Shown: positions 21,660 through 64,000, numbered from the stretch's first letter. The stretch: 64,000 nucleotides of DNA from Acidobacteriota bacterium (GCA_021325515.1 JAJPHC010000054.1:147874-211873); one strand, 5' to 3'. Numbers and translations are program-made. Notes: generated from the sequence alone by a model not told the origin.

Positions 21660-22970
21660 CTAATGCACAGCCATCGCCACATCGAGACGGCGATACCGCG
21701 TCGTGCCCGGCAGGCAGCTCTTGTGCTCGACGTGATACAGGTACTCGTCGCGGAACTTCTTCACGCTCGAGATCACCGGACCGATTGCGGCGTCGCCCAG
21801 TGCGCAGAGCGACTTGCCGCCGATGTTGTCGGCCATGTCGAGCAGCAGATCCGCGTCCTGCTGGCGGCCATGTCCGCGCTCCAGCCGGTCGAGCACCGTC
21901 TCCATCCAGTTGGTTCCTTCACGGCACGGCGTGCACTGCCCGCAGGATTCATGTGCGAAGAACTTCGCGAGACGCCACACGGCGTCGACGATGCACATCG
22001 ACTCGTCGATCACGATGATTCCCGCCGAGCCGAGCATCGATCCGGCCTTCATGACCGCATCGAAGTTCAGCGGAAGATCGAGCTCGTCCGCCGTCAGCAT
22101 CGGCGCGGAAGCACCGCCGGGAATCACGGCCTTCACCTTGCGATCGCCGGTGATGCCGCCGCAGTGCTCGTAGATCAGCTCCTTGAGGGAGATGCCCATC
22201 GGGAACTCGTAGACACCCGGCTTCTTCACCGCGCCCGAAACGCAGTAGAGCTTCGGCCCGGTGTTCTTCGGGCTGCCAAAGCCTTTGAACCATTCCGCGC
22301 CGTTGTTGATGATCAGCGGCACGCAGGCCAGTGTCTCGACGTTGTTGACGACCGTCGGTCCGCCGAACACGCCGACGACCGCGGGGAAGGGCGGCTTCAC
22401 GCGCGGCTGGCCGCGATGTCCTTCGACGGACTCGATGAGTCCCGTCTCTTCGCCGCAGATGTACGCACCCGCGCCGCGATGCACGGTGATGTCGAAGTCG
22501 AATCCGCTTCCGAAAATATTCTTGCCGAGGAAGCCCTTGGCGCGCGCTTCTTCGAGAGCTTTGTCGAGAACGGTTGCGCCGAAGTAGAACTCACCGCGGA
22601 TGTAGATGTACGACATCGGACAGGAGCCGATCGCGTACGCGGAGATGATCATCCCTTCGATCAGCAGATGCGGATCGCGCTCGATGATCACGCGGTCCTT
22701 GAAGGTACCCGGCTCCGACTCGTCGGCATTGCAGAGGAGATACGTCGGACGCGGCGCGTTCTTCGGCACGAACGACCACTTCATGCCGGTGGGAAAGCCT
22801 GCGCCTCCCCTTCCACGAAGCTCGGAGTCTTTCACGATCTGCGTGACTTCCTCCGGCTTCATCTTCAATGCTTTTTCAGCGGCCTTGTAGCCGCCGCCGG
22901 CGAGATAGACATCGATCGATGCCGAGTTCGGCTTGTCGATGTTGGCGGTGAGGACTTTGATTGGTTCCAT
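21660..22970 (-). CDS. nuoF: NADH-quinone oxidoreductase subunit F
   Basis: GGAGFPTGMKWSF FMN/NADH-binding motifs. C-terminal 4Fe-4S cysteines (ESCGQCTPCREG). Confidence 0.95.
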   Translation of the reverse strand: MEPIKVLTANIDKPNSASIDVYLAGGGYKAAEKALKMKPEEVTQIVKDSELRGRGGAGFPTGMKWSFVPKNAPRPTYLLCNADESEPGTFKDRVIIERDPHLLIEGMIISAYAIGSCPMSYIYIRGEFYFGATVLDKALEEARAKGFLGKNIFGSGFDFDITVHRGAGAYICGEETGLIESVEGHRGQPRVKPPFPAVVGVFGGPTVVNNVETLACVPLIINNGAEWFKGFGSPKNTGPKLYCVSGAVKKPGVYEFPMGISLKELIYEHCGGITGDRKVKAVIPGGASAPMLTADELDLPLNFDAVMKAGSMLGSAGIIVIDESMCIVDAVWRLAKFFAHESCGQCTPCREGTNWMETVLDRLERGHGRQQDADLLLDMADNIGGKSLCALGDAAIGPVISSVKKFRDEYLYHVEHKSCLPGTTRYRRLDVAMAVH

Positions 22971-23501
22971 TTACTTGAGCGTCTTCAGCAGCGCGTCGAC
23001 TTTCTCGACGGTCATGTTCTCGTGGTAGTCGTTGTTGATCTGCACGACCGGTGCGGTGCCGCAGGAGCCGAGGCACTCGACTTCCGTGATCGTGAATTTA
23101 CCGTCCGGCGTCGTCTGGCCCGGCTGCACGTTCATCTTCTCGCACAGGCCTTCGTAGATGTCGTACGCACGGCCGATCATGCACGACAGATTCGTGCAGA
23201 CCTGGACGTGGTACTTCCCGACGGGCTTCTGGTTGTACATGTTGTAGAACGACACGACACCGAAAACCGTCGCCGGCGAAAGATCGAGCAGTCCGCCGAT
23301 GTAGTGGACGGCTTCCGGAGAAATCCATCCCCACTCTTCCTGTGCGAGATGCAGCACCGGAAGCAGCGCCGCCTCTTTGTTGGGGTATCTCGTCAGCAGA
23401 TAGTCGAACTTCTTCTTCGCCTCGGGCGAGAACTCGACTTTCTTCGCGGGATCCGCGAAGCGTTCAGGGGCATATGCACTATCGGGGTGGAGCTCAGCCA
23501 T
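22971..23501 (-). CDS. nuoE: NADH-quinone oxidoreductase subunit E
   Basis: Thioredoxin-like 2Fe-2S motifs (CTNLSC...CLGSCGTAP). Confidence 0.9.
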   Translation of the reverse strand: MAELHPDSAYAPERFADPAKKVEFSPEAKKKFDYLLTRYPNKEAALLPVLHLAQEEWGWISPEAVHYIGGLLDLSPATVFGVVSFYNMYNQKPVGKYHVQVCTNLSCMIGRAYDIYEGLCEKMNVQPGQTTPDGKFTITEVECLGSCGTAPVVQINNDYHENMTVEKVDALLKTLK

Positions 23502-23504
23502 CGA

Positions 23505-23897
23505 TCATTTCCAGTCAAACGCCTTCTTCTTCCAGACGTAGGCATAGCCGACGGCGAGCAGCACGATGAACAGCAGCATCTCGCCGAAGAGGAACATCCC
23601 GGCATTTCCGTACGTAGCCCGGCGATAGATCACCGCCCACGGATAGAGAAACGCGGCTTCGATGTCGAACAGGATGAACAACATCGCAATCTGGTAGAAG
23701 CGCACGTTGACGCGCTTTCTATTGGTGTCGAGCAGCGGCACGCCGCTCTCGTAGGGAGCGAGCTTCGACGGCGTCCGCTGATGACGGCCGATGACCCAGT
23801 TGAGACTGAGAAACACCACACCGAGCCCGACAGCCACGATGAGCAGGAGAAGGACGGGGACAAAGCTCGTGGTCATAAAACGGGCGCATGCTACCAA
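23505..23897 (-). CDS. nuoA: NADH-quinone oxidoreductase subunit A (start may be internal Met at 23876)
   Basis: 3-TM protein with conserved YESG.P and FDIE..FLYPWA motifs. Confidence 0.85.
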   Translation of the reverse strand: MVACARFMTTSFVPVLLLLIVAVGLGVVFLSLNWVIGRHQRTPSKLAPYESGVPLLDTNRKRVNVRFYQIAMLFILFDIEAAFLYPWAVIYRRATYGNAGMFLFGEMLLFIVLLAVGYAYVWKKKAFDWK

Positions 23898-28136: not shown

Positions 28137-28250
28137 GACGTCTCCTTATGTGGGGTTACTTGTCTCTCTACGCGCAGGGAGTCGCGAAGAGGGGCCAGAC
28201 AAAAACGCCGCACGAATTCGTGCGGCGTTTTCAAATCCGGAAAGAGCGGG

Positions 28251-38937: not shown

Positions 38938-39900
38938 CTACGACGGATTTTTCGGACTCTCCTTCGCCGCCTTCGCACCGAAGAAGGAAGGATCGAGATA
39001 AATATCAGCGGCCTTCTTGATGCGGTCGACCGTTGCCCGCGCGACGTCCTGCCGCCCTTCCGCTTCGAGCTGCGGCCGCGCTTCCTCGAACGTCGGAGTC
39101 TTGCGCGCGCCGACTTTGAAAATGTGAATTCCGTACGGCGTCTTCAACGGGCCGCTGATCTCTCCCGGCTTCATCGAGAAGACGAGATCCGCAACGTCGG
39201 GCGGGAGCGCCTGGCGTCCGACTGCGCCGATGTTGCCGCCCTGCCGCGCGGTCGCAACATCATCCGAGATCGCCTGCGCGACGAGCTCGAAGTCCTGGCC
39301 CGCGCGGATCTGGGCCTCGATCTCCCGCGCCTTCTTCATCGCGTCATCGAATGACAACGGCTTCGTTCCCGGCCGCGAGGGAACCTGCCCTCCCTGATAC
39401 GCGATGAGAATGTGCTTGAGCTCGACCGACTCCAGACCTTTCTTCTGCTGTTCGTACTCGGAACGGAGCGCGGCTTCATTCGGCTTGGTCAGCTTGTTGA
39501 GCGCGCTCATCGCCAACTGGTTCGTCGCTTCCGCCTGAAGCCGCATCGTCGCTTCAGGATCGCGATCGAGTCCCATCTTCCGGCCTTCCTGAGCGAGCGC
39601 GACGACACTCGCGATCTGATCGGCGATCATCCGCCGCCCCTCGGCGCTCGCCGTCATCTGCTGCACGTTCTCCGGCATTCCGGAGACATACGTCTGGAAC
39701 TGGCGATCCGTAACCGGCTCACCGTTCACGCGCATGACGACTTTTCCCGGCGCGGCAGGCGCGCCTGCTGCTGCCGCGTCGTCGAGACGGAAAGGCTCGG
39801 ATGGTGTTGGCTTGAAAGTGGGCCGGGCATGTGCGAGTCCGAAACAGACACCACCGACGGCGACGATCGCGACGAATGCGATGAGCAGGTCCTTCTTCAT
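38938..39900 (-). CDS. peptidyl-prolyl cis-trans isomerase, parvulin (PpiC/SurA-like) family, secreted
   Basis: N-terminal TM/signal segment. SurA-like N-domain. PpiC-type domain (..ELKHILIAYQG...). Confidence 0.7.
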   Translation of the reverse strand: MKKDLLIAFVAIVAVGGVCFGLAHARPTFKPTPSEPFRLDDAAAAGAPAAPGKVVMRVNGEPVTDRQFQTYVSGMPENVQQMTASAEGRRMIADQIASVVALAQEGRKMGLDRDPEATMRLQAEATNQLAMSALNKLTKPNEAALRSEYEQQKKGLESVELKHILIAYQGGQVPSRPGTKPLSFDDAMKKAREIEAQIRAGQDFELVAQAISDDVATARQGGNIGAVGRQALPPDVADLVFSMKPGEISGPLKTPYGIHIFKVGARKTPTFEEARPQLEAEGRQDVARATVDRIKKAADIYLDPSFFGAKAAKESPKNPS

Positions 39901-39997
39901 ACGGCGCGAACAATATCAGGCAACTGCCAGCGGGCAACAGGTTACGGGAGTCCGCTCACGCATTGACGCCCTGAAACGCCATGAGTATGCTGCGCGC

Positions 39998-40015
39998 TTG
40001 TGAAACTTTTCACGC
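39998..40015. promoter_or_regulatory. putative Rex operator upstream of nuoG (TTGTGAAACTTTTCACGC)
   Basis: Matches the Rex consensus TTGTGAA-N4-TTCACAA with 2 mismatches in the right half. Lies about 50 bp upstream of the nuoG start. A rex gene is present downstream of nuoN. Confidence 0.5.
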
Positions 40016-40066
40016 GATTTTTGCGTGACGAGTTGCCCGCCGAAACTGCAGTCTGCACAAGCACCT

Positions 40067-41629
40067 ATGGCTAAAGTCACCATCGACGGAATCGAAGTCG
40101 AAGTCCAGGACGGCATCAATTGCATCGAGGCCGCGAAGGCCGCTGATGTCCACGTCCCGCACTTCTGCTACCACCCCTCTCTGACAGTCGTCGGACAGTG
40201 CCGCATGTGCCTCGTCGAAGTCGAGGGCATGCCGAAACTGCAGGCCGGCTGCGCCACCCCTGTGAAGGACGGGATGAAGATCCACGTCTGGAACGAGAAG
40301 GTCGACAAAGCCCGCAAGGGCCAGATGGAGTTCCTCCTCATCAACCACCCGCTGGACTGTCCGATCTGCGACAAGGCCGGCGAGTGCCCGCTGCAGGACT
40401 ACTCCTTCAACTACGGCTCTGTGGAGTCGCGCTACGGCGAAGTGAAGCGCACGTATCCCGGCATGGATCGCACGCCGATCGGCCCGCATGTCGTGCAGAA
40501 CATGAATCGCTGCATCCACTGCACGCGATGCATCCGCTTCACGCAGGAGATCACCGGCACGAGCGAGCTCGCTTTCTTCAAGCGCGGCGCCTCGACGGAA
40601 GTCGGCGTCTTCGCCGGCGTCCCGCTCGACAACTGGATGTCCGCCTGCGTCACCGACATCTGCCCCACCGGCGCACTGACGACGCGCGAATTCCGCTTCG
40701 AATCGCGCGTCTGGAATCTCGATTCCGCGGAATCGGTCTGCAATGGCTGCGATGTCGGCTGCAACATCTTCATCGGCAGCCGCAGCGGCCAGGTCTACCG
40801 CTATCGCCCGCGCGTCAATCCCGAAGTCAACGATCACTGGCTGTGTGATTACGGCCGCTTCTCGCACGAGAAGTACGACACCGATCGCGTCGTCGTTCCG
40901 AAGGTCCGGCAGGACGACTATCTCGGAATCTCGACCTGGGGCGAGGCGCTCGAGGCCATCACCTCCGCCGTGCGCGGCGCGAAGTCGATCGGTGTCATCG
41001 CTTCCGCACAGATGACGAACGAGGAAGCGTGGCTCGCCAAGCAGCTCTTCGTCGATCAGATGAAGGCGAAGGCCACCGTCACCGTCGATCCGATCGGCCC
41101 GATCAAGATGAAGTCGCGCACGGAGTGGCTCGCCGGCGAACAGGCCGGCCCGAACTTCCGCGGCGTCTCCGCAATCCTGGGTGCAGGTCAGGCGACCTCG
41201 CCTGACAAACAGGCGGAGGCGCCTGTCGTACACGACGTGCTCTTCGTTCTCGACGCGCAGTTCAGCGAGCGCGCAAAAGATCCTTCCTACATCGCGCAGC
41301 TTCGCAAGTCGAAGTTCCTCGTCGTCATCTCCTGGGATGCCAATCATCCGCTTGCAGATGCCGCCGACGTCCTCCTCCCCGGCACGATTCATCCGGAGAA
41401 GGAAGGGACATACACGAATCTGCAGAACCGCGTGCAGCGAATCCATCAGGCATTCCCGCCGAAGGGACAGGCGGTCAGCGAGCTCGAGCTCTTCCGCCGG
41501 ATCGGCGCCGCTCTCTATCCGGATGCGGCGGAGTTCCGCAGCGCCGATGCGTATGACGTCTTCGCTTCGCTGCGGCAGTCGATGCCTGCGATGCAGATCT
41601 CCGAAGAAATGTCTGCCGAGGCTGTGTAA
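40067..41629 (+). CDS. nuoG: NADH-quinone oxidoreductase subunit G (short form, about 520 aa)
   Basis: N-terminal 2Fe-2S ferredoxin fold (CYHP..C..C). 4Fe-4S motifs (CPICDKAGECPLQ; CIHCTRCIRF). The start is taken at MAKVTIDGIEV. Confidence 0.85.
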   Translation: MAKVTIDGIEVEVQDGINCIEAAKAADVHVPHFCYHPSLTVVGQCRMCLVEVEGMPKLQAGCATPVKDGMKIHVWNEKVDKARKGQMEFLLINHPLDCPICDKAGECPLQDYSFNYGSVESRYGEVKRTYPGMDRTPIGPHVVQNMNRCIHCTRCIRFTQEITGTSELAFFKRGASTEVGVFAGVPLDNWMSACVTDICPTGALTTREFRFESRVWNLDSAESVCNGCDVGCNIFIGSRSGQVYRYRPRVNPEVNDHWLCDYGRFSHEKYDTDRVVVPKVRQDDYLGISTWGEALEAITSAVRGAKSIGVIASAQMTNEEAWLAKQLFVDQMKAKATVTVDPIGPIKMKSRTEWLAGEQAGPNFRGVSAILGAGQATSPDKQAEAPVVHDVLFVLDAQFSERAKDPSYIAQLRKSKFLVVISWDANHPLADAADVLLPGTIHPEKEGTYTNLQNRVQRIHQAFPPKGQAVSELELFRRIGAALYPDAAEFRSADAYDVFASLRQSMPAMQISEEMSAEAV

Positions 41630-41632
41630 GAG

Positions 41633-42937
41633 ATGGCATTCGACGCAACAGACATCGCACTCTCGCTCCTCAAGATCGTCGTCGTTCTTGCCGCACTGCT
41701 GAATGTCACGCCGATCATGGTCTGGATCGAGCGCCGCGGCAGCGCGCTGATTCAGGATCGTCCGGGACCGAATCGCGTCGGCCCCTTCGGGCTCATTCAG
41801 TCGTTCGCGGACGCGCTGAAGTTCATCCTGAAGGAAGACCTGATCCCGGAGCAGTCGCACAAGTGGCTCTACACCATCGCGCCGATGTTCGGCCTGCTGC
41901 CCGCGCTGACCACGATCTCGGTCATCCCCTGGGGCGAGCCGTTCCGGCTGCCGGATGACATCGCGTACGGCGGCAAGCTGTCGCTCGCGCTGATGATCGC
42001 CGCCGGTGTGATGCTGATGGCCGGTCTGCTCATCGCAGGCTTCGCCGTTCATCCGAAGGAAGGCGTCGGGCGGATGCCGCTCAACCTCACGATTCGGTGG
42101 ATGGTCGCGATCGGTCTCATCCTCGGCGGCTTCGCAGTCGGCGGACTCGTGATCGCGCTTCGCCAGTTCGGCCCGTTCCACCTGCCGGGCGCCGGCCGCA
42201 TCTTCGAACCGATCGTCGCCGATCTCAACATCGGAATCCTGCTGATCTTCGCCCTCGCATCGCTGGGCGTCTACGGCATCGTCACCGCGGGCTGGGCCTC
42301 ATCGAACAAGTACTCGCTCTTCGGCGGTATCCGCGCTTCGGCACAGATGATCTCGTACGAGCTCGCGCTCACACTCGCAGCGGTGAGCACACTGCTCGCC
42401 GCGGGATCGCTGCGGCTGACCGACGTGGTCTGGCAGCAGACCGGTTACTTCTACATCTTCAACACGATCAAGATCCCGGCGTGGAACGTCTTCTCGCCGG
42501 CGATGTGGCTCAGCTTCATCATCTTCACCGTCTCCGCATTCGCAGAGACCAATCGTCTGCCGTTCGACTTCGCCGAAGCGGAAGCGGAGCTCGTCGCCGG
42601 ATACCACACCGAGTATTCGTCGATGAAGTTCGCGCTCTTCTTCATGGCCGAGTACATGTCGATGGCCGCGATCTCCGCCCTCATCGCGACGCTCTATCTC
42701 GGCGGATGGGACATCCCCTACTTCGCGGAAACCGCCACCTGGTGGTCGTCGGTGCTGTCGATGGGCTGCTTCGTGACGAAGGTCGTGGCGCTGCTGCTCG
42801 TCTTCGTCTGGGTGCGCTGGACGATCCCCCGGCTCAAGTACGACATCCTGATGCGCCTTGGCTGGAAGGTGTTCCTGCCGCTGGCGATCGTGAACATCGT
42901 GATCGTTGCATTCTTCGTTGCCAAACACTGGATATGA
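41633..42937 (+). CDS. nuoH: NADH-quinone oxidoreductase subunit H
   Basis: Conserved ...VWIERRGSALIQDRPGPNRVGPFGLIQSFADALK motif region. Multi-TM. Confidence 0.95.
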   Translation: MAFDATDIALSLLKIVVVLAALLNVTPIMVWIERRGSALIQDRPGPNRVGPFGLIQSFADALKFILKEDLIPEQSHKWLYTIAPMFGLLPALTTISVIPWGEPFRLPDDIAYGGKLSLALMIAAGVMLMAGLLIAGFAVHPKEGVGRMPLNLTIRWMVAIGLILGGFAVGGLVIALRQFGPFHLPGAGRIFEPIVADLNIGILLIFALASLGVYGIVTAGWASSNKYSLFGGIRASAQMISYELALTLAAVSTLLAAGSLRLTDVVWQQTGYFYIFNTIKIPAWNVFSPAMWLSFIIFTVSAFAETNRLPFDFAEAEAELVAGYHTEYSSMKFALFFMAEYMSMAAISALIATLYLGGWDIPYFAETATWWSSVLSMGCFVTKVVALLLVFVWVRWTIPRLKYDILMRLGWKVFLPLAIVNIVIVAFFVAKHWI

Positions 42938-43034
42938 GAGATGGTCACGCGGTCGCGCGGTTTCGCGGGCTCGCGGTGGTTCGGTCCACCTGCGCGCCCG
43001 CGGACCCGCGTGACCGCGTAACCCCGTAACCAAC

Positions 43035-43535
43035 ATGTTCGAATTCGCGATCTTCTTCTTCTTCGCCGCCATCGCCGTGATTTTCGCGCTGGTGGTCGTA
43101 CTGCACCGGAATCCGGTGGTAGGAGCGCTGTCCCTCGTGGCGTCGTTCTTCTCGCTGGCGGTGATGTACGTACTGCTCGAGGCGCCGTTTCTCGCAGCGC
43201 TGCAGGTGATCGTTTACGCAGGCGCGATCATGGTCCTCTTTCTCTTCGTGATCATGCTGCTGAATCTGCAGCACCAGGAGGAAGCGCCGACGCGGCCCGT
43301 GCAGCAATTCCTCGGCTACTCGTCGAGCGCCGCCTTCGTTCTCGGGCTCGTCTACTACATCGTCAAGTACGCGGCGTTCACGTCGCTTCCTTCCGGTCCG
43401 TTCAAGACGGACGCGATGCTCATCGGGGCCGACCTCTTCCAGGCGTACGTCTTCCCCTTCGAGATGGTCTCGATCCTTCTGCTGGCGGCGATCGTCGGCG
43501 CGCTGCTGCTCAGCGCACGGAGTGTGGCGCGATGA
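43035..43535 (+). CDS. nuoJ: NADH-quinone oxidoreductase subunit J
   Basis: Typical NuoJ N-terminus ([26 protein letters not shown]) and size. Confidence 0.85.
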
Positions 43536-43834
43536 TTCCGACTCATTACTTTCTGATTCTGAGCGCGGTTCTCTTCTCCATCGGCGTCTGCGGCGTGCTC
43601 ACGCGGAAGAACGGCATCACGATCTTCATGTCGATCGAGCTGATGGTGAACGCCGTCAATCTCACGTTCCTCGCCTACGCGAGGCAGTTTCATCAGCTCC
43701 ACGGACTGATCTTCGTATTCTTCGTGATGGCGATCGCGGCAGCAGAAGCAGCGGTCGGGCTCGCCATCTTCATCTCTCTCTTCCACCACAAGGAAACGAT
43801 CGATGTGGACGAAGCGAATCTGATGCACTGGTGA
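43532..43834 (+). CDS. nuoK: NADH-quinone oxidoreductase subunit K
   Basis: 100 aa, 3 TM, conserved [16 protein letters not shown]. Overlaps the nuoJ stop (ATGA). Confidence 0.9.
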
Positions 43835-43908: not shown

Positions 43909-44316
43909 ATGCGAAAGACAGAAAAGCTCATTGACTGGCAGGAAAACGAGAGGAAGGACCGCAATCGCAACGGTCTCGATGATCGAATCGAGCCGCCGAT
44001 CCCCGATGTATCGCAGGGCTCGAAACGATTGGCGGAACGGCTTCGCGACGATGGACTGGCCGACCCGGCCGTAACGGCGGGCGACCTCGACGCACGGTGG
44101 GAAGCAGCGCAATTCACCGGCGACGAATCAGCCATCAGCTCGATGCCGACTCCGGAGCCGAATGTGGTCGACGAAATCGGAGCATCGATCGGAATCAACT
44201 ACGCGGCAGATGAAGAGCTGAAGGCCGGCGAGAAGGAACGCGAACGCGACCGGCATCGTTGGGAGCTCGATCCGGCTTCCTCCGAGGATTATCAGGATCG
44301 CAGTAGAGAACGATAG
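43909..44316 (+). CDS. small highly charged hypothetical protein (135 aa) inserted between nuoK and nuoL; atypical composition
   Basis: ORF with E/D/R-rich, low-complexity product and visibly lower third-position GC than flanking nuo genes. May be foreign or non-coding. Confidence 0.3.
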   Translation: MRKTEKLIDWQENERKDRNRNGLDDRIEPPIPDVSQGSKRLAERLRDDGLADPAVTAGDLDARWEAAQFTGDESAISSMPTPEPNVVDEIGASIGINYAADEELKAGEKERERDRHRWELDPASSEDYQDRSRER

Positions 44317-44451: not shown

Positions 44452-46353
44452 ATGCTGACAAAACTCTGGCTCATCCCCCTGCTACCGTTCATCGGTTTCG
44501 TGCTGAACGGGCTGTTCGGCAAGCGGCTCGGAAAGGCGTTCGTCACCGGTGTTGCGCTGGTGTCGACGTTCGGAGCTGCGGTCGTCGGAACGATGGCTGC
44601 GTTCCAGTATCACGCTCAGTACCCCGAGGGTGAGCGGTACGTCCAGACGGTATTCAACTGGTTCACGTCGGGGAGCATTCATGCCGACGTCGCCTTCCAG
44701 CTCGACCCGCTGTCGATCGTGATGCTGATGGTCGTGACGTGGATCGGCGCGCTCATCCATCTCTACTCCGTCGGCTACATGGCGCACGAAGATGGGTACT
44801 GGCGCTACTTCGCGTACCTCAACCTCTTTCTCTCCGAGATGCTCGTGCTCATCCTCGGCGCGAACTACCTCGTGATGTTCGTCGGCTGGGAAGGCGTCGG
44901 ACTCTGCTCGTATCTCCTCATCGGCTTCTACTACAAGACCGACTACGCGCCGGCCGCCGGCAAGAAGGCGTTCGTCGTCAACCGCATCGGCGACTTCGGT
45001 TTCCTCATCGCAGTCTTCCTGATGTTCGCGTATCTCGGGACGGCGGATTTCGGCCTCGTCTCGCATCGCGCGGCCGCGGGCGTCGACGCGTGGCTCCTCA
45101 CCGCAATCTGTCTGCTGCTCTTCCTCGGCGCGTGCGGTAAGTCGGCGCAGATTCCGTTGTACGTGTGGCTGCCGGACGCGATGGCCGGCCCGACGCCGGT
45201 CTCCGCACTCATCCACGCGGCGACGATGGTCACCGCGGGCGTCTACATGATCGCGCGCAGCAACGCGCTCTACCGGCTTGCACCCGACGCGATGATGGTC
45301 GTCGCAATCGTCGGCTCGGTCACTGCGCTGTTCGCAGCAACCATCGGCATCCGGCAGTGGGACATCAAGAAGGTCCTCGCCTACTCCACCGTCTCGCAGC
45401 TCGGCTTCATGTTCATCGGCGTCGGCGTCGGCGCATTCACCGCCGGCGTGTTCCATCTCGTCACGCACGCCTTCTTCAAGGCCTGTCTCTTCCTCGGCTC
45501 GGGCTCGGTGATTCACGCGATGTCGGGCGAGCAGGACATCCGCAAGATGGGCGGGCTGAGGTCGAAGATCCCCATCACCTACTGGACGTTCCTGATCGCG
45601 ACGATCGCGATCGCAGGCTTCCCGCCGTTCGCAGGCTTCTTCTCGAAAGACGAGATCCTCGGTTCCGCGCTCTCGTCGCCGTATCTCCCGGCCGGCGTCC
45701 GCTACCTCGTGTGGGGCCTCGGCAGCGTCGCCGCGCTCTGCACCGCGTACTACATGTTCCGCCTCGTGTTCCTGACGTTCTTCGGCGACTTCCGTGGAAC
45801 ACACGAACAGGAGCACCACCTCCACGAATCGCCGGCAACGATGACGATTCCGCTGATCGTTCTCGCAACTCTGTCGACGATCGGCGGGTTCGCGCTCGCG
45901 TGGCATCACACGCTGGCGAAGTGGCTCGAGCCGATTTATCCGAAGATCGAAGGCCGCGAGAGCGAGTTCGCGATCGCCAACGAAGTCCCGCTCATGATCG
46001 TCGCCACGATCATCGCGGCGATTGGTACCTGGCTCGCCTACGTCCGCTTCTACAAGCGCGGGCTCGCAGCCGACGAATCGTTCGCGCAGAGCTCTCCCGC
46101 CATCGCACGCGGCATGGAGAACAAGTGGTACGTCGACGAGCTCTATGAAGCGATCATCGTCCGTCCGCTCGAAAAGATCTCTCTCTTCTTCTGGAAGTTC
46201 ATCGACGCGATCATCGACGGCCTCGCGGCCATGCTCGGCTACATCGTGCAGGGCTTCGGGGATCTGATGCGCTTCTTTCAAACCGGCAACGTTCGCAACT
46301 ACGCGCTGATGCTGTTCCTCGGCGTGATCGTCTTCATGTGGGTGATCTCGTGA
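44452..46353 (+). CDS. nuoL: NADH-quinone oxidoreductase subunit L
   Basis: 633 aa. Antiporter-like multi-TM with conserved WLPDAMAGPTPVSALIHAATMVTAGVY. Confidence 0.95.
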   Translation: MLTKLWLIPLLPFIGFVLNGLFGKRLGKAFVTGVALVSTFGAAVVGTMAAFQYHAQYPEGERYVQTVFNWFTSGSIHADVAFQLDPLSIVMLMVVTWIGALIHLYSVGYMAHEDGYWRYFAYLNLFLSEMLVLILGANYLVMFVGWEGVGLCSYLLIGFYYKTDYAPAAGKKAFVVNRIGDFGFLIAVFLMFAYLGTADFGLVSHRAAAGVDAWLLTAICLLLFLGACGKSAQIPLYVWLPDAMAGPTPVSALIHAATMVTAGVYMIARSNALYRLAPDAMMVVAIVGSVTALFAATIGIRQWDIKKVLAYSTVSQLGFMFIGVGVGAFTAGVFHLVTHAFFKACLFLGSGSVIHAMSGEQDIRKMGGLRSKIPITYWTFLIATIAIAGFPPFAGFFSKDEILGSALSSPYLPAGVRYLVWGLGSVAALCTAYYMFRLVFLTFFGDFRGTHEQEHHLHESPATMTIPLIVLATLSTIGGFALAWHHTLAKWLEPIYPKIEGRESEFAIANEVPLMIVATIIAAIGTWLAYVRFYKRGLAADESFAQSSPAIARGMENKWYVDELYEAIIVRPLEKISLFFWKFIDAIIDGLAAMLGYIVQGFGDLMRFFQTGNVRNYALMLFLGVIVFMWVIS

Positions 46354-47927
46354 TTCTGCTGCTCAGCTCCCTGATCTGGATTCCGATCATCGCGGCTCTC
46401 GTGCTGGCGCTCATGCCCGGCTCGTGGGTGAACGCGATCAAAGGAATCGGCCTCTTCGTCTCCGCCGCGATGTTCGTCGTCTCGCTCGGCCTCGTCACGG
46501 GCTGGAGAGAAGGCTTCGCCGGCATGCAGTTCCCCGAGGAGCTCGACTGGATTCCTCAATGGGGGATCCGCTACGGCCTCGGCGTCGACGGCATTTCGCT
46601 CTGGCTGGTTCTCCTCACGACGCTGCTCACGCCGGTCGTCTTCCTCGCATCGTGGAACACGATTCACAAACATCCGAAGGCGTATGTGATCGCGTTCCTG
46701 ATCATGGAAGCGGGCACCGTCGGCGTCTTCGCCGCGACCGATCTCTTCCTCTTCTACGTCTTCTTCGAGCTGACGCTGCTGCCGATGTACGTGATCATCG
46801 GCGTTTGGGGCGGCAAGAACCGCATCTACGCCGCGGTGAAGTTCTTCCTCTTCACGATCGCCGGCTCGCTGCTGATGCTGCTCGGCATCATCTATCTCGT
46901 CTTCCAGCACTACCACGAAACGCAGCTCATCTCGTTCACGATCACCGATCTCTACGGCACCGCCGCGAATCTGTCGTCGTACACGCAGGCGCTGCTCTTC
47001 TTCGCCTTCGCGCTCGCGTTCGCGATCAAGGTTCCGCTGTTCCCGCTGCACACCTGGCTGCCTGACGCTCACGTCGAGGCGCCGACCGGCGGCTCGATCA
47101 TCCTCGCCGGCGTCATGCTGAAGATGGGGACGTACGGGTTTCTCCGCTTCGTCCTGCCGTTCTTCCCCGAGGCGACGGCGAAGTATGCGGGGGTGCTGAT
47201 CGCGCTGAGCGTCATCGGCATCATCTACGGCGCGCTGGTCGCCTGGGTGCAGCCCGACATGAAGAAGCTCGTCGCTTACTCATCGGTGTCGCATCTCGGC
47301 TTCTGCGTCCTCGGCATCTTCGCGCTGAATCAGACGTCGATCGAAGGATCGATTCTGCAGATGGTGAATCACGGTCTGTCGACGGGCGCGCTCTTCCTTC
47401 TGGTCGGCGTCGTATACGAGCGGCGCCACACCCGGCTTCTCGCCGACTACGGCGGCCTCGCGGAGACGATGCCGGTCTATGCGGTCTGCTTCGTGATCGC
47501 GATGCTGTCGTCGGTTGGGCTGCCGGGTCTCAACGGATTCGTCGGTGAGTTCCTGATTCTCAGCGGCTCGTTCCAGACGCACCCCACGGCGGCGATTCTC
47601 TCCGCAACGGGTGTGATCCTCGCCGCGATCTATCTGCTCTGGCTCATCCAGCGCGTCTTCTACGGCCCGATCACGAACGAGGAAAACAGGAACGTGCCGG
47701 AGATCGCATGGAACGAGATCGGCGCGCTCGTGCCGCTCTTCGTCTTCATCGTCTGGATCGGCGTGCACCCCAATACGTTCCTCAGCAGGATGTCGCCGAG
47801 CGTGCAGCAGTTGCTGTCGCAAGTGCAGCACGAGCGGGAGCACAAAGTCTTGCAGGCACGTGTAGGACAACCACCCGCGTTGTCCGGGCAAGCTGGAGAG
47901 CTTGCCATTCATGGAGGTGCGCGATGA
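46338..47927 (+). CDS. nuoM: NADH-quinone oxidoreductase subunit M (GTG start; may start at GTG 46350)
   Basis: Antiporter-like. Conserved WLPDAHVEAPTGGSIILAGVMLKMGTYG. Overlaps the nuoL end. Confidence 0.9.
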   Translation: MGDLVILLLSSLIWIPIIAALVLALMPGSWVNAIKGIGLFVSAAMFVVSLGLVTGWREGFAGMQFPEELDWIPQWGIRYGLGVDGISLWLVLLTTLLTPVVFLASWNTIHKHPKAYVIAFLIMEAGTVGVFAATDLFLFYVFFELTLLPMYVIIGVWGGKNRIYAAVKFFLFTIAGSLLMLLGIIYLVFQHYHETQLISFTITDLYGTAANLSSYTQALLFFAFALAFAIKVPLFPLHTWLPDAHVEAPTGGSIILAGVMLKMGTYGFLRFVLPFFPEATAKYAGVLIALSVIGIIYGALVAWVQPDMKKLVAYSSVSHLGFCVLGIFALNQTSIEGSILQMVNHGLSTGALFLLVGVVYERRHTRLLADYGGLAETMPVYAVCFVIAMLSSVGLPGLNGFVGEFLILSGSFQTHPTAAILSATGVILAAIYLLWLIQRVFYGPITNEENRNVPEIAWNEIGALVPLFVFIVWIGVHPNTFLSRMSPSVQQLLSQVQHEREHKVLQARVGQPPALSGQAGELAIHGGAR

Positions 47928-49381
47928 ACCTCACACCTCTGGTCGAAGCGGGGTGGATCAATGCGCTGATGCCGGAGCTGCTGCTCTGCGTTGGCGGCAT
48001 GCTGCTGATTCTGATCGACGCGTTTGCGCCGAAGAGCCGCAGCGTTCTCTCCGCGATCGCGGTCATCATCCTGGTCGCCACCGTGTGGGTCGAGCGGGCG
48101 ATTCCGGGCGGCCTGTTCTTCGGCGGCACGTACCAGATCAGCGAGATCACGCAGCTCTTCGACATGACGTTCCTCCTCGCCGCGATTCTCGCGACGCTCT
48201 TTGCGGGCGATTACCTGCAGCGGGAAGGAATCGATGGCGGAGAGTTCTACGCATTGTTGATGTGGGGCACGGTCGGCCTGATGATGATGGCCAAGGGCCT
48301 CGACCTCCTGATCGTCATCCTCGGTCTCGAGCTCGTCTCCATCTGCATCTTCGTGCTCGTCGGCTATCACCGCCGGCTCGTCATCGCCAATGAGGCGAGC
48401 CTGAAGTACTTCCTCATGGGGGCGTTCGCCACGGGATTCATCCTGTACGGCACGGCGCTCTTCTACGGCGCAACGCAATCGACGAACCTCACCGCGATGG
48501 CGCAGTGGTTCGCGACGAATGACGCGGCAGCGAATCCGATGCTGACCGTGGCGTTCGTCCTGCTGATGGCCGGGCTCGGGTTCAAGCTCGCGCTCGCGCC
48601 GTTCCACGGCTGGGCGCCGGACGTCTACCAGGGTGCGCCGTCGCCCGTCGCCGGCTGGCTGTCGGTCGCGCCGAAGGCGGCGACGCTCATCGCGCTCGCG
48701 CGCATCTTCTATGCGATGTCGCCGGCGCTTCCCCACGTGCAGTGGATGAAGATGGTCACCGCGCTGTCGGTGCTGTCGATGATCGTCGGCAACGCCGTTG
48801 CGATCGTGCAGCGCGACCTCAAGCGCATGCTCGCCTACTCCGGCATCGCGCACGTCGGCTACATGATGATCGCCATGATCACGCTGCGCGACGATTCCGT
48901 CGCCGCGATCGCGATTTATACGATCGTCTACGCGCTGATGAACATCGGCGCCTTCGGCGTCGTGTCGCTGCTGTCGAAGAATCAGAACGATCCGCAGACG
49001 CTGGACGACATCGCAGGGCTCTTCTGGCGGCGGCCGTTCCAGGGCTTCGCGATGACGATCTGCATGTTCTCGCTGTCCGGCCTTCCGCCGACGGCAGGGT
49101 TCATGTCGAAGTTCTACATCTTCAAGAACGCGATCGAGTCGGGCCATACGGCGATTGCTCTGACCGGCATCATCACCAGCATCGTCTCGGTCTACTACTA
49201 TCTCCGCGTCGTCTACTTCATGTTCATGAAGGATGCGACGGAGGCGACTCCGGGAACCGACAGCGGCGTTTTTGCGACGGGTGCGATGGCGATCTCGATT
49301 CTGGGCATCATCGGCATCGGCTTGTTCCCCGGACCGCTCTTCAGGATTGCAGGACAGGCAGCAAGCGAAATCTTCCGTTGA
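47924..49381 (+). CDS. nuoN: NADH-quinone oxidoreductase subunit N
   Basis: The start at MNLTPLVEAGW overlaps the nuoM stop (ATGA). Conserved GWAPDVYQGAPSPV motif. Confidence 0.9.
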   Translation: MNLTPLVEAGWINALMPELLLCVGGMLLILIDAFAPKSRSVLSAIAVIILVATVWVERAIPGGLFFGGTYQISEITQLFDMTFLLAAILATLFAGDYLQREGIDGGEFYALLMWGTVGLMMMAKGLDLLIVILGLELVSICIFVLVGYHRRLVIANEASLKYFLMGAFATGFILYGTALFYGATQSTNLTAMAQWFATNDAAANPMLTVAFVLLMAGLGFKLALAPFHGWAPDVYQGAPSPVAGWLSVAPKAATLIALARIFYAMSPALPHVQWMKMVTALSVLSMIVGNAVAIVQRDLKRMLAYSGIAHVGYMMIAMITLRDDSVAAIAIYTIVYALMNIGAFGVVSLLSKNQNDPQTLDDIAGLFWRRPFQGFAMTICMFSLSGLPPTAGFMSKFYIFKNAIESGHTAIALTGIITSIVSVYYYLRVVYFMFMKDATEATPGTDSGVFATGAMAISILGIIGIGLFPGPLFRIAGQAASEIFR

Positions 49382-49385
49382 TCTC

Positions 49386-50051
49386 ATGTCCCAACGCGCG
49401 CCTGAACGCGAAGCGATCTCGGAGCTGACCACCGGCCGGCTGTCCGTCTATCTCCGCTGCCTGACCTTTCTCGAATCGATCGGGCAGCGGACCGTGTCTT
49501 CGCACGAGCTCGCGGAGCGCTTCCATCTCAACTCCGCGCAGATCCGCAAGGACCTCGCGATCTTCGGCGAGTTCGGCACGCGCGGCGTCGGCTACAACGT
49601 GGCGACACTGCGCGAGCACCTCATCCACACACTCGGTCTCGATCGCACCCGTAACGTGATCATCGCCGGCGCCGGCAACCTCGGCATGGCGCTCGCCGAC
49701 TACGGCGGCTTCAACGAGGGCGGCTTTCACATCATCGCGCTCGCCGACAGCGATCCCGCAAAGTTCGGCAAGACCTCCCGCAGCGGCATCCCCGTCGTAC
49801 CGTTCGCGTCTCTCAGCACCACGATCCGCACGAGCTCCGTCGAGATCGGCATCATCGCCGTCCCTTCCCCCGCGGCCCAGCACACCTACGACGCACTGGT
49901 CGATGCCGGCATCTGCGCAGTACTCAACTTCGCGCCGATTCAGATTCGCCTACGCCCCGGCGTGAAGCTGAAGTCCGTCGACCTGCGCATCAACCTCGAG
50001 TCCCTCTCGTTCTATCTTAAGAACGTGGAAGACGGCACCTGCGGCTTCTGA
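49386..50051 (+). CDS. rex: redox-sensing transcriptional repressor Rex
   Basis: N-terminal winged helix (RLSVYLRCL...). Rossmann/CoA-binding fold (VIIAGAGNLGMALADY). Immediately follows nuoN. Confidence 0.8.
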   Translation: MSQRAPEREAISELTTGRLSVYLRCLTFLESIGQRTVSSHELAERFHLNSAQIRKDLAIFGEFGTRGVGYNVATLREHLIHTLGLDRTRNVIIAGAGNLGMALADYGGFNEGGFHIIALADSDPAKFGKTSRSGIPVVPFASLSTTIRTSSVEIGIIAVPSPAAQHTYDALVDAGICAVLNFAPIQIRLRPGVKLKSVDLRINLESLSFYLKNVEDGTCGF

Positions 50052-50053
50052 TG

Positions 50054-50395
50054 TCAGGGATGAGGCGCGCTTCCCCGAAGCGCAACATCGATGCGCGCAA
50101 GAAGTTCGTCGAGTGCAACGGATAGTTGGGGAACCAGCTGGCGGGCACGATCGAGATCGTCTTCTGCTGCGGCTGCTTCGACGGCCGCCGCAATGTCGAT
50201 CACCGCGGCCCCCGGAAAGTTGCTGACACTCCCCTTCAACTTGTGCGCCGCCAGGTACAACGCGCGCGCATCGCTGCGCTCCAGAGCCGACTGAATGTCC
50301 GCGAGCGACAAGGGCGTCTGGCGCGCGAGCACCTCACGCACACGCGCGAGGAGGCGCAGGTTGCTGCCGACTGCCGCCAGAATCGAATCGCTCAA
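50054..50395 (-). CDS. HPt (histidine phosphotransfer) domain protein
   Basis: 113 aa with AHKLKGS phospho-His motif. Overlaps the upstream SARP-receiver gene (ATGA). Confidence 0.65.
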   Translation of the reverse strand: MSDSILAAVGSNLRLLARVREVLARQTPLSLADIQSALERSDARALYLAAHKLKGSVSNFPGAAVIDIAAAVEAAAAEDDLDRARQLVPQLSVALDELLARIDVALRGSAPHP

Positions 50396-63486: not shown

Positions 63487-63504
63487 TTGTGAAAACTTTC
63501 TCAA
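63487..63504. promoter_or_regulatory. putative Rex operator upstream of nuoB (TTGTGAAAACTTTCTCAA)
   Basis: TTGTGAA-N4-TTCTCAA, one mismatch from the TTGTGAA-N4-TTCACAA consensus. About 60 bp upstream of the nuoB start. Shares the cTTGTGAAAacTTT core with the nuoG upstream site. Confidence 0.5.
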
Positions 63505-63563
63505 GTTCATAAAATGCCGCCGCCTTCCCGCCGCAACCCGCGGCAAGCGCGTGAATTCAAGTT

Positions 63564-64000
63564 ATGCCAGCTCAAAAGATTGAACATCCCGACTCGATCA
63601 TTCCCCGCAAGGCGGGCGTCGCTCCCGGTGAAGGTCCGGAGAAGGGTCTGATCACCCTTCCGGGCGAGACGTCGCGCGAGGCCGAAGACCTCGCAGGCGG
63701 CACGTACCTCACCACCAAACTCGACACGATGGTGAACTGGGCGCGCGGCAACTCGCTCTGGCCGCTCCCCTTCGGCACCGCATGCTGCGCCATCGAGTTC
63801 ATGTCGATGGTCTCCTCGCACTACGACGTCGCGCGGTTCGGCGCCGAGGTCGTGCGGTTCTCGCCGCGGCAGGCCGATCTCATGATCGTCGCCGGCACCA
63901 TCGTCGACAAAATGGGTCCCGTCCTCAAGAAGATCTACGACCAGATGCCGGAACCGAAGTACGTGCTCGCCATGGGTGCGTGCGCGACGTCGGGCGGCTT
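63564..64000 (+). CDS. nuoB: NADH-quinone oxidoreductase subunit B, 5' portion (runs off the window end)
   Basis: [15 protein letters not shown] and GACATSGG N2-cluster motifs. Confidence 0.9.

What the first reader, a model, noticed from the sequence alone, without database searches (positions are those of the whole stretch)
39998..40015. Rex regulon signature: Rex-box-like operators upstream of nuoG and nuoB, with rex encoded directly after nuoN
TTGTGAAACTTTTCACGC (upstream of nuoG) and TTGTGAAAACTTTCTCAA (63487-63504, upstream of nuoB) both fit the established Rex operator consensus TTGTGAA-N4-TTCACAA and share an extended cTTGTGAAAacTTT core. A rex gene (49386-50051) is fused to the end of the nuoG-N operon. 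This suggests NADH/NAD+-responsive repression of the separated complex I sub-operons, with rex co-transcribed with its target. The nuoA-E-F locus shows no obvious box.
Basis: partly seen in the sequence, partly recalled or inferred. Interest (0 to 1): 0.6.

Follow-up and report, generated by a model that had tools for sequence, protein, structure and literature searches.

The report
Rex operators controlling split complex I operons
Two conserved 18-bp DNA sites in front of respiratory complex I genes of a soil acidobacterium are almost certainly binding sites for the NADH-sensing repressor Rex, whose gene ends one of the operons; this extends a well-known circuit to a new phylum.

Summary
Both boxes are at the stated coordinates. 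Two matches with at most 2 mismatches to TTGTGAA-N4-TTCACAA occur in the window, against 0.04 expected. The window comes from a Thermoanaerobaculia (Acidobacteriota) genome.

In 78 of 80 related genomes the nuoG box (TTGTGAAAnnTTTCACGG) is nearly invariant. It starts 6 nt after a conserved -10 hexamer, so it covers the transcription start, and its flanks are unconserved. In 70 of 79 metagenome relatives the nuoB box (TTGTGAAAnnTTTCTCAA) overlaps the -35 hexamer and spacer of a conserved promoter. The core motif occurs nowhere else in 1.78 Mb of related DNA, and it is absent upstream of nuoA-E-F in 33 of 33 loci.

rex follows nuoN within a few bases in 48 of 48 loci. The protein passes NCBIfam Rex cut-offs and aligns end to end with crystallised Rex proteins. 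It keeps their DNA base-contact and NADH-switch residues.

The most likely mechanism is this. Rex represses nuoG-N-rex and nuoB-CD when NADH/NAD+ is low. NADH releases Rex, and rex is autoregulated. Binding itself is inferred, not shown. Rex control of nuo is already proven in Streptomyces, so this is a new member of a known kind and of moderate interest.

The parts
39963..39991 (+). nuoG promoter: -35 TTGACG, 17-nt spacer, -10 TATGCT
   Evidence: Promoter scan. Both hexamers are conserved in the box-anchored alignment of 78 loci, whereas the spacer and upstream DNA carry about 0.1 bit per position.
39998..40015 (+). Rex operator O-nuoG, TTGTGAAACTTTTCACGC. It starts 6 nt after the -10 hexamer and so covers the predicted transcription start.
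   Evidence: PWM score 32.3 bits. Present in 78 of 80 related genomes, and the core GTGAA/TTCAC is invariant in 78 of 78.
40023..40030 (+). Auxiliary element GCGTGACG, the inverted complement of the operator's right arm (TCACGC). It is either a degenerate extra Rex half-site or the 3' arm of a 5'-UTR hairpin.
   Evidence: At least 6 of 8 bases complementary in 52 of 78 loci against about 3 expected. A GTGA[AG] half-site lies within 22 nt downstream in 38 of 78 loci against 1.1 expected. The hairpin is predicted in the RNA fold but the energy is not exceptional, z = -1.17.
40067..41629 (+). nuoG
   Evidence: Pfam Fer2_4, NADH-G_4Fe-4S_3 and Fer4_Nqo3. NCBIfam TIGR01973 NuoG E = 2.5e-138, 462.5 bits, just under its 470 cut-off.
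41633..42937 (+). nuoH (434 aa, longer than the family profile)
   Evidence: Pfam NADHdh E = 1.2e-110, matched in two stretches.
43035..43535 (+). nuoJ. No nuoI lies between nuoH and nuoJ.
   Evidence: Pfam Oxidored_q3. No NuoI-type Cys motif in any frame of the window.
43532..43834 (+). nuoK
   Evidence: Pfam Oxidored_q2.
43909..44316 (+). DUF6335 gene embedded between nuoK and nuoL
   Evidence: Pfam PF19861 E = 1.9e-27. It keeps this position in nearly all related loci.
44452..46353 (+). nuoL
   Evidence: Pfam Proton_antipo_M and Proton_antipo_N.
46338..47927 (+). nuoM
   Evidence: Pfam Proton_antipo_M and Oxidored_q5_N.
47924..49381 (+). nuoN. Its start ATG overlaps the nuoM stop (ATGA) and is preceded by GGAGG.
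   Evidence: Pfam Proton_antipo_M. Start codon analysis.
49386..50051 (+). rex, the last cistron, 4 nt after the nuoN stop. It is followed by a convergent Hpt gene.
   Evidence: NCBIfam NF003995, 236.7 bits against a cut-off of 126, and NF003993, 226.2 against 217. Pfam PF06971 and PF02629. Full-length match to T. maritima and Thermus Rex structures. rex follows nuoN in 48 of 48 loci. No promoter-like or terminator-like site in 49200-50500.
63487..63504 (+). Rex operator O-nuoB, TTGTGAAAACTTTCTCAA. Its first six bases serve as the -35 hexamer, and its right half is the variant GAGAAA.
   Evidence: PWM score 19.0 bits. Present in 70 of 79 evaluable metagenome loci, 62 distinct sequences, with position 15 = T in 59 of 62.
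63510..63515 (+). -10 hexamer TAAAAT of the nuoB promoter, 17 nt after TTGTGA
   Evidence: Promoter scan. A TAGAAT-like hexamer lies 5 nt after the box in most relatives.
63564..64000 (+). nuoB, cut by the window end. In relatives it is followed by a fused nuoCD.
   Evidence: CCAIEFM motif. Pfam Oxidored_q6 for L084 nuoB, and Complex1_30kDa plus Complex1_49kDa in the single 590-aa ORF that follows.
21660..23876 (-). nuoA-nuoE-nuoF, a complex I sub-operon that has no box (negative comparison)
   Evidence: NuoF and NuoE motifs. ORFs. Best PWM score upstream of nuoA is -20.9 bits in the window and at most -4.2 bits in 32 relatives. No site of at least 12 bits in 1.19 Mb of genome loci other than the nuoG sites.

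Best explanation
The two 18-bp inverted repeats are operators for the Rex repressor encoded by the last gene of the nuoG-H-J-K-DUF6335-L-M-N-rex operon. When the NADH/NAD+ ratio is low, a Rex dimer sits on the nuoG operator, which covers the transcription start just downstream of the -10 hexamer. It also sits on the nuoB operator, which overlaps the -35 hexamer and spacer. In both places it blocks RNA polymerase. When NADH accumulates, NADH binding closes the dimer and Rex leaves the DNA. The membrane arm plus NuoG, and the NuoB-NuoCD module, of complex I are then made to re-oxidise NADH. Because rex is co-transcribed with nuoG-N, it is negatively autoregulated, so repressor supply rises with derepression. 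The nuoA-E-F sub-operon is outside this control. What is shown here: the motifs, their promoter positions, their conservation and exclusivity, the operon structure, and the Rex family identity with conserved DNA-contact and NADH-switch residues. What is inferred: physical binding, the direction of regulation and the NADH response.
For: Match to the consensus: 2 hits with at most 2 mismatches against 0.04 expected. A lineage PWM gives 32.3 and 19.0 bits, and shuffles give 0.01 hits of at least 16 bits per window. Footprinting: the nuoG box is present in 78 of 80 genomes with 69-93% NuoG identity, at a fixed 6 nt after a conserved -10, and its flanks carry about 0.1 bit per position. The nuoB box is present in 70 of 79 loci, with a -10 hexamer 5 nt downstream. 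Exclusivity: the core TTGTGAAANNTTTC occurs exactly once in 140 of 160 loci, always upstream of nuoG or nuoB, and nowhere else in 1.78 Mb. The same palindrome sits at two different promoter positions, and box-less natural variants keep the promoter hexamers, so it is not a core promoter element. The core is invariant with no covariation, and the nuoB copy lies upstream of its -10, so it is a DNA element and not an RNA element. The regulator is linked: rex lies -35 to +17 nt (82 nt in one locus) after nuoN in 47 of the 48 loci with a complete nuoN; the 48th (L071) has a rex match but no start codon could be placed. All 48 carry the nuoG box. Rex identity: NCBIfam models above cut-off and full-length alignment to T. 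maritima Rex at E = 1e-44. By that alignment the T. maritima base contacts R48/K49/R60/G61 correspond to R54/K55/R66/G67 here, and the NADH-switch residues Y100/D191 correspond to Y106/D199 (PMC8836258). Precedent: Rex binds and represses nuoA1-N1 in S. avermitilis through an operator over the -35, and cydA1 through one downstream of the start site (PMC5355995). T. maritima Rex was crystallised on TTGAGAAATTTATCACAA, which has the same GAGAAA variant half-site as the nuoB box (PMC8836258).
Against: There is no binding or expression data for this lineage. The TGTGA-N6-TCACA spacing is shared with CRP-family sites, so another regulator is not formally excluded. There were no informative negative cases: contigs of the box-less relatives end before rex, so co-loss of box and regulator could not be tested. 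The promoter hexamers and the transcription start are predicted, not mapped. The outer bases of the nuoG box are asymmetric (TT on the left, GG on the right, instead of AA), and the nuoB right half is consistently non-consensus. Both point to extra, unexplained constraints. The box also lies in the divergent intergenic region shared with a PPIase gene, which could be a co-target or the real target.
Confidence: 0.85

Rival explanations
1. The boxes are operators, but for a CRP/FNR-family regulator, which also recognises TGTGA-N6-TCACA. The adjacency of rex would then be coincidental.
For: The spacing of the TGTGA and TCAC pentamers in both boxes equals that of CRP-type sites (read directly from the sequences). 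No binding data discriminate between the two.
Against: The conserved inner A/T runs (GTGAAA-nn-TTTCAC) and the outer TT fit the Rex consensus TTGTGAA(W4)TTCACAA (PMC2883068, PMC5355995), not the outer A/T flanks of CRP sites (from my own knowledge). rex is linked to the box-bearing operon in 48 of 48 loci. No cNMP-binding/Crp-type gene appeared among the window ORFs scanned with Pfam, though the scan was not exhaustive.
Confidence: 0.06
2. The conserved sequence is a promoter or 5'-UTR feature rather than a repressor site. For example, it could be an unusual extended -35 element, or an RNA stem-loop that stabilises the nuoG mRNA.
For: TTGTGA serves as the predicted -35 hexamer of the nuoB promoter. 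The right arm of the nuoG box pairs with a downstream complement in 52 of 78 loci, some apparently with compensatory GC/GC versus GG/CC ends. A hairpin is predicted in the putative 5' UTR.
Against: The same palindrome lies at +1 in one promoter and at -35 in the other. Relatives that lost the box keep functional-looking hexamers. The palindrome core shows zero covariation, and its own loop would be only 2-4 nt. The nuoB copy lies upstream of its -10 and would not be transcribed. The fold energy is unexceptional, z = -1.17. The hairpin may coexist with operator function but does not replace it.
Confidence: 0.05
3. The boxes are chance matches or relics with no current function.
For: Each is a short motif. 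About 10% of relatives lack one of the two boxes.
Against: Expected 0.04 per window against 2 observed. Near-invariance across 140 loci with unconserved flanks.
Confidence: 0.01

Closest known systems
Rex control of nuoA-N in Streptomyces (S. coelicolor; S. avermitilis, PMC5355995)
   Same: The same repressor family and the same operator consensus TTGTGAANNNNTTCACAA. The same target enzyme, NADH dehydrogenase I. The operator positions also match: over the -35 and spacer (nuoA1 there, nuoB here) or at or just downstream of the start site (cydA1 there, nuoG here). rex is autoregulated as part of a target operon.
   Different: Here the host is a Gram-negative acidobacterium. The complex I genes are split into at least three transcription units, of which two carry a box and one (nuoA-E-F) does not. 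rex is the 3'-terminal cistron of the nuo operon itself, rather than the first gene of rex-hemACD. Nothing has been tested experimentally here.
Thermotoga maritima Rex and its operator complex (PDB 5ZZ5 and 7WB3; PMC8836258)
   Same: It is the closest solved homologue (E = 1e-44, full length). The base-contact residues R48/K49/R60/G61 and the NADH-switch residues Y100/D191 are conserved. The crystallised operator TTGAGAAATTTATCACAA carries the same GAGAAA half-site as the nuoB box.
   Different: Different phylum and different regulon (fermentation and hydrogenase genes in Thermotogales). The T. maritima operator has a different centre and a different right arm.
Staphylococcus aureus Rex box TTGTGAAW4TTCACAA (PMC2883068)
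   Same: An A/T-rich centre, as in the lineage motif GTGAAA-nn-TTTCAC.
   Different: In S. aureus the targets are anaerobic and fermentative genes, not complex I, and the outer bases are symmetric.
Comparative Rex regulon reconstruction (Ravcheev et al. 2012, J Bacteriol 194:1145; seen here only through citations in PMC6391272)
   Same: The same approach and conclusion type: a Rex box plus a conserved regulon of energy-metabolism genes.
   Different: As I recall, Acidobacteriota were not among the taxa analysed. The paper itself was not available, so this is unverified. Full-text searches found no description of Rex in Acidobacteriota.

Membership tests
Rex protein family (redox-sensing transcriptional repressor) | N-terminal winged-helix DNA-binding domain (Pfam PF06971) | tested here: met
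   PF06971 E = 2.8e-16, 59.8 bits against a cut-off of 27.
Rex protein family (redox-sensing transcriptional repressor) | C-terminal Rossmann-fold NAD(H)-binding domain with GxGxxG and an acidic residue at the end of beta-2 | tested here: met
   PF02629 E = 1.1e-16. G95-A-G97-N-L-G100 and D121 align with T. maritima G-A-G-N-I-G and D115 (PMC8836258).
Rex protein family (redox-sensing transcriptional repressor) | Score above the curated cut-off of a Rex-specific HMM | tested here: met
   NF003995, 236.7 bits against 126. NF003993 (equivalog), 226.2 against 217.
Rex protein family (redox-sensing transcriptional repressor) | Base-contacting residues of the recognition helix and wing (T. maritima R48, K49, R60, G61) | tested here: met
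   They correspond to R54, K55, R66, G67 here in the ungapped alignment. Residue roles are from PMC8836258. The region is at least 90% conserved among the 49 Rex sequences of the clade (window plus 48 loci).
Rex protein family (redox-sensing transcriptional repressor) | NADH-switch residues (T. maritima Tyr100' and Asp191) and the C-terminal swapped helix | tested here: met
   Y106 and D199. The alignment runs to residue 211 of 221, covering helix alpha-9 (PMC8836258).
Rex protein family (redox-sensing transcriptional repressor) | DNA binding that is relieved by NADH | not testable with these tools
   Needs EMSA or ITC with purified protein.
Rex operator (ROP) | 18-bp inverted repeat matching TTGTGAA-N4-TTCACAA | tested here: met
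   1 and 2 mismatches. 2 hits against 0.04 expected.
Rex operator (ROP) | Position overlapping the promoter or transcription start of the regulated gene | tested here: met
   The nuoG box starts 6 nt after the -10 hexamer. The nuoB box overlaps the -35 hexamer and spacer. The hexamers are predicted, not mapped.
Rex operator (ROP) | Conservation upstream of orthologous genes in genomes that encode Rex | tested here: met
   78 of 80 nuoG loci and 70 of 79 nuoB loci. All 48 loci with rex carry the nuoG box.
Rex operator (ROP) | Physical occupancy by Rex (footprint or ChIP) | not testable with these tools
   No experimental data exist for this lineage.
CRP/FNR-type binding site (rival filing) | TGTGA-N6-TCACA palindrome together with a cognate cNMP-binding/Crp-family regulator | tested here: inconclusive
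   The spacing is compatible. However, the conserved inner A/T runs and outer TT fit Rex, and no Crp-family gene was found among the window ORFs scanned. Whole genomes were not available.

The most novel reading that the evidence does not exclude
In Thermoanaerobaculia, complex I may be regulated module by module. The NADH-oxidising NuoE-F pair (with NuoA) would be expressed independently of Rex. NuoG plus the membrane arm, and the NuoB-NuoCD quinone module, would be gated by NADH/NAD+ through two operators of deliberately different strength and position: a perfect core at +1, and a conserved GAGAAA variant over the -35. Rex dosage would be tied to membrane-arm transcription because rex is the operon's last cistron. 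The conserved extra half-site or hairpin after the nuoG operator would add a second layer, either cooperative Rex binding or mRNA stabilisation. Repeated natural loss of one box would mark lineages that have rewired this control.
Probability: 0.4. Interest if true: 0.45.

Novelty: new member of a known kind. Interest (0 to 1): 0.35.

Why it matters
Acidobacteriota are among the most abundant soil bacteria, yet little of their gene regulation has been described. This finding gives a concrete, testable regulatory circuit for a whole uncultured class. It names the regulator, gives two operators at base resolution, and identifies two target operons and one non-target operon. The circuit links cellular redox state to synthesis of the main NADH-oxidising enzyme. 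It also supplies a lineage-specific Rex motif that can be used to map the rest of the regulon in complete MAGs. Finally, it shows that Rex control of complex I, known from Actinobacteria, also exists in a Gram-negative phylum, in a different operon layout in which rex sits inside the target operon and the complex I genes are split.

Tried and rejected
1. I first translated nuoG and nuoB one base out of frame. The corrected starts are 40067 and 63564. The first tblastn map therefore had no NuoB query, and nuoB was later studied through a separate metagenome scan.

2. I looked for nuoA-E-F in three wrong places before a motif search located it on the minus strand at 21660-23876.

3. The third consensus match (20986-21003, 3 mismatches) is rejected as chance. 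It lies inside an ORF, scores below 8 bits with the PWM, and has no conserved counterpart of at least 12 bits in relatives.

4. An RNA-structure reading of the palindrome is rejected. RNAalifold finds only the 5-bp core, with no covariation in 78 sequences.

5. The 5'-UTR hairpin formed by the operator's right arm and a downstream complement is real as a sequence pattern. It is not energetically exceptional, and it is equally explained by a degenerate second operator. It remains open.

6. The Rex homologue search returned only close relatives (72-91% identity, all Thermoanaerobaculia-like). It therefore could not show how far the nuoN-rex linkage extends, and it gave no negative controls.

7. 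Ravcheev et al. 2012 could not be retrieved.

Full report
OBSERVATION. The window reads TTGTGAAACTTTTCACGC at 39998-40015 and TTGTGAAAACTTTCTCAA at 63487-63504. Against the Rex operator consensus TTGTGAANNNNTTCACAA these have 2 and 1 mismatches. At up to 2 mismatches the window holds exactly these two hits, against 0.04 expected, and none of 100 dinucleotide shuffles reaches two. At up to 3 mismatches a third hit appears (20986-21003), against 0.79 expected. That hit lies inside an ORF and is not conserved in relatives, so I treat it as chance.

Pfam and NCBIfam confirm the genes. They are nuoG (40067-41629), nuoH, nuoJ, nuoK, a DUF6335 gene, nuoL, nuoM, nuoN (47924-49381) and rex (49386-50051). 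The rex product scores 236.7 bits on NF003995 (cut-off 126) and 226.2 bits on NF003993 (cut-off 217). rex begins 4 nt after the nuoN stop. No promoter-like or terminator-like site lies around the junction. A convergent Hpt gene closes the unit. nuoB starts at 63564 and is cut by the window end. nuoA-E-F lies on the minus strand at 23876-21660.

ORGANISM AND RELATIVES. A scan of one genome per species with NuoG returned 80 loci with 69-93% identity. All are Thermoanaerobaculia or Acidobacteriota MAGs. A metagenome scan with the NuoB N-terminus returned 80 further loci with 81-99% identity.

THE nuoG BOX IS A DEEP FOOTPRINT ON A PROMOTER. In 78 of 80 genome loci the best consensus match within 300 nt upstream of nuoG is TTGTGAAAnnTTTCAC(GG), with at most 2 mismatches. 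I anchored the 78 upstream regions on the box. Only three conserved blocks appear:
- TTGACg;
- 17 nt later, (a)gTATnCT;
- after a further 6 nt (ccgcnc), the box, at 1.7-2.4 bits per position.
Everything else is at about 0.1 bit. In the window the hexamers are TTGACG and TATGCT at 39963-39991. The box therefore covers the predicted transcription start. The core GTGAA/TTCAC is identical in all 78 sequences, while the two central bases vary freely.

THE nuoB BOX IS A SECOND FOOTPRINT AT A DIFFERENT PROMOTER POSITION. In 70 of 79 evaluable metagenome loci (62 distinct sequences), TTGTGAAAnnTTTCTC(A/T)A precedes nuoB. It is followed after 5 nt by a TAGAAT-like -10 hexamer. TTGTGA is thus the -35 hexamer, and the rest of the box fills the spacer. 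In the window this is TTGTGA-17-TAAAAT at 63487-63515. The right half is consistently TTTCTC rather than TTTCAC: position 15 is T in 59 of 62 sequences.

EXCLUSIVITY.
- A PWM built only from the relatives' nuoG sites finds two hits of at least 8 bits in the window, 32.3 and 19.0 bits. Shuffles give 0.01 hits of at least 16 bits per window.
- In 1.19 Mb of genome loci there is no further site of at least 12 bits.
- In 0.58 Mb of nuoB loci there is one further site, at 11.4 bits.
- The core TTGTGAAANNTTTC occurs exactly once in 140 of the 160 loci. It is always on the coding strand upstream of nuoG or nuoB.
- Upstream of nuoA the best PWM score is -20.9 bits in the window and at most -4.2 bits in 32 relatives. 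Only a TAGCAT-like -10 is conserved there.

NOT A CORE PROMOTER ELEMENT AND NOT AN RNA ELEMENT.
- The same palindrome sits at +1 in one promoter and over the -35 in the other.
- Natural variants have lost the box but kept the hexamers. L028 keeps TTGACG-17-gACTATcCT but has no box upstream of nuoG.
- L083, L085, L089 and L093 have an extended -10 (TGTAGAAT) and no box upstream of nuoB. In L089 and L093, TTGTG is joined directly to TAGAAT, as if the box had been excised.
- The palindrome shows sequence invariance rather than covariation.
- The nuoB copy lies upstream of its -10 and would not be transcribed.

THE REGULATOR. All 48 genome loci that contain a complete nuoN have rex directly downstream. 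Where the rex start could be placed (47 loci) the gap is 3-17 nt in 43, with extremes of -35 and +82. All 48 carry the nuoG box. The window's Rex aligns over its full length with solved Rex structures:
- T. maritima 5ZZ5/7WB3, E = 1e-44;
- Thermus 3IKT/1XCB, E = 4e-40;
- T. ethanolicus, S. agalactiae and B. subtilis.
In the ungapped alignment to T. maritima Rex, the residues reported to read the bases (Arg48, Lys49, Arg60, Gly61) correspond to R54, K55, R66 and G67 here. The NADH-switch pair Tyr100'/Asp191 corresponds to Y106/D199. The dinucleotide fold keeps G95-x-G97-x-x-G100, D121 and K126 (residue roles from PMC8836258). The recognition region is at least 90% conserved across the 49 Rex sequences of the clade, the window's plus 48 from the loci. 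The operator in the T. maritima crystal, TTGAGAAATTTATCACAA, contains the same GAGAAA half-site that characterises the nuoB box.

MECHANISM. The best-supported model is classical Rex repression. At a low NADH/NAD+ ratio, Rex occupies both operators and blocks RNA polymerase, at the start site for nuoG and at the -35 and spacer for nuoB. NADH binding releases it. The cell then makes NuoG, the membrane arm and NuoB-NuoCD, and NADH oxidation capacity rises. In L084 nuoB is followed by a single 590-aa ORF carrying both the 30-kDa and 49-kDa domains, which is the fused NuoCD. rex, as the last cistron, is autoregulated.

The operator positions have direct experimental precedents in Streptomyces avermitilis. 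There Rex protects -42 to -16 of nuoA1 (an operator over the -35) and -3 to +25 of cydA1, NADH abolishes binding, and a rex deletion raises nuoA1 transcripts (PMC5355995). Shown here: the motifs, their positions, conservation and exclusivity, the operon structure and the family membership. Inferred: binding, the sign of regulation and the effector response. I put the model at 0.85.

RIVALS.
- A CRP/FNR-type regulator shares the TGTGA-N6-TCACA spacing. However, the conserved inner A/T runs and outer TT are Rex-like (compare TTGTGAAW4TTCACAA in S. aureus, PMC2883068). rex is linked in 48 of 48 loci. No Crp-family gene was seen among the ORFs scanned. I give this 0.06.
- A promoter or RNA feature is contradicted by the points above. 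I give it 0.05.
- Chance is excluded by the conservation data.
- A caveat: the nuoG box lies in a 166-nt divergent intergenic region shared with a PPIase gene (38938-39900, minus strand). That gene could be co-regulated.

OPEN DETAILS.
- The nuoG box is asymmetric at its ends: TT on the left, and GG or GC on the right instead of AA.
- In 52 of 78 loci the right arm TTTCACGG is followed after 5-11 nt by its complement CCGTGAAA, against about 3 loci expected. In the window this is TCACGC-gattttt-GCGTGA.
- 38 of 78 loci have a GTGA[AG] half-site within 22 nt downstream, against 1.1 expected.
- 19 of 78 loci have a whole degenerate GTGA-N4-8-TCAC repeat, against 0.13 expected.
These features could be an auxiliary Rex half-site, as described for S. 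avermitilis cydA1 (PMC5355995). They could also be a 5'-terminal mRNA hairpin; that hairpin is predicted but unexceptional, z = -1.17. The conserved weakness of the nuoB right half, and the loss of one box in roughly 10% of lineages, suggest tuning of operator strength. This was not tested.

NOVELTY. The Rex family, its operator and its control of complex I genes are established (PMC5355995, PMC2883068, PMC8836258, and Ravcheev et al. 2012 as cited in PMC6391272). Reviews describe Rex as mainly Gram-positive and 'absent from most Gram-negative bacteria' (PMC8376106). Full-text searches found nothing on Rex in Acidobacteriota. This is therefore a new member of a known kind. It describes a class-wide Rex circuit in Thermoanaerobaculia, with rex embedded at the 3' end of a split nuo system and with selective control of two of three sub-operons. 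It is a solid and useful annotation but would not surprise a specialist. Interest is 0.35.

Noticed in passing
window 41633-43535; L084 6001-8357: The complex I genes are scattered. nuoI is missing between nuoH and nuoJ, and no NuoI-type 2x[4Fe-4S] Cys motif occurs in any frame of the 64-kb window. nuoB is followed by a fused nuoCD (590 aa) and then by unrelated genes (rubrerythrin, DinB-like, a class V aminotransferase). The location of nuoI is unknown.
   Followed up: partly
window 43909-44316: A 135-aa DUF6335 (PF19861) gene sits between nuoK and nuoL. It keeps that position in nearly all of the roughly 70 related loci long enough to show it. It may be a lineage-specific accessory subunit or assembly factor of complex I.
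   Followed up: partly
window 41633-42937: NuoH is 434 aa, about 90-100 aa longer than usual. The Pfam NADHdh match is split into two stretches, and tblastn identity to relatives is confined to the C-terminal 250 aa or so. This suggests a variable insertion or N-terminal region.
   Followed up: no
window 40008-40030; L003 1545-1566 and many others: The right arm of the nuoG operator and a downstream complement (TTTCACGG-N5-11-CCGTGAAA) form a conserved inverted repeat in 52 of 78 loci. Some loci show GG/CC versus GC/GC changes on both arms. It is either an auxiliary Rex half-site, a degenerate second operator, or a 5'-UTR hairpin.
   Followed up: partly
L028 9800-10000; L083, L085, L089, L093 5800-6000: Natural box-loss variants. 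L028 keeps the nuoG promoter hexamers but lacks the box. Four nuoB loci (91-97% NuoB identity to the window) lack the box and instead have an extended -10, TGTAGAAT. In L089 and L093, TTGTG abuts TAGAAT, as if the 18-bp operator had been deleted precisely.
   Followed up: partly
window 21225-21650 (-) and 20615-21166 (-): Directly downstream of nuoF and co-oriented with it lies a 141-aa ORF with a signal-like N-terminus and two CxxCH motifs (CNHCH, CMTCH), which looks like a small c-type cytochrome. It is followed by a 183-aa ORF without Pfam hits. Both may belong to the nuoA-E-F transcription unit.
   Followed up: no
window 50054-51531 (-): An Hpt-domain gene and a 379-aa response-regulator gene (receiver domain at the C-terminus) converge on rex. 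The Hpt stop lies 2 nt from the rex stop. The Hpt-RR pair recurs downstream of rex in several relatives (for example L018, L027, L031, L047, L052).
   Followed up: no
window 34383-37327: An ECF sigma factor gene (PF07638) overlaps the start of an 807-aa Ser/Thr kinase with TPR repeats. I recall this pairing as typical of Acidobacteria and Planctomycetes.
   Followed up: no
window 23985-32081 (-): Two very large ORFs lie upstream of nuoA: 1383 aa with no Pfam hit, and 1276 aa with three ricin-type lectin domains. A GC-rich terminator-like hairpin separates the first from the nuoA promoter.
   Followed up: no
window 38938-39900 (-): A PPIC-type peptidyl-prolyl isomerase gene is transcribed divergently from nuoG. 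It keeps that position in most relatives, so the Rex box lies in a shared divergent control region about 98 nt upstream of its start codon.
   Followed up: no
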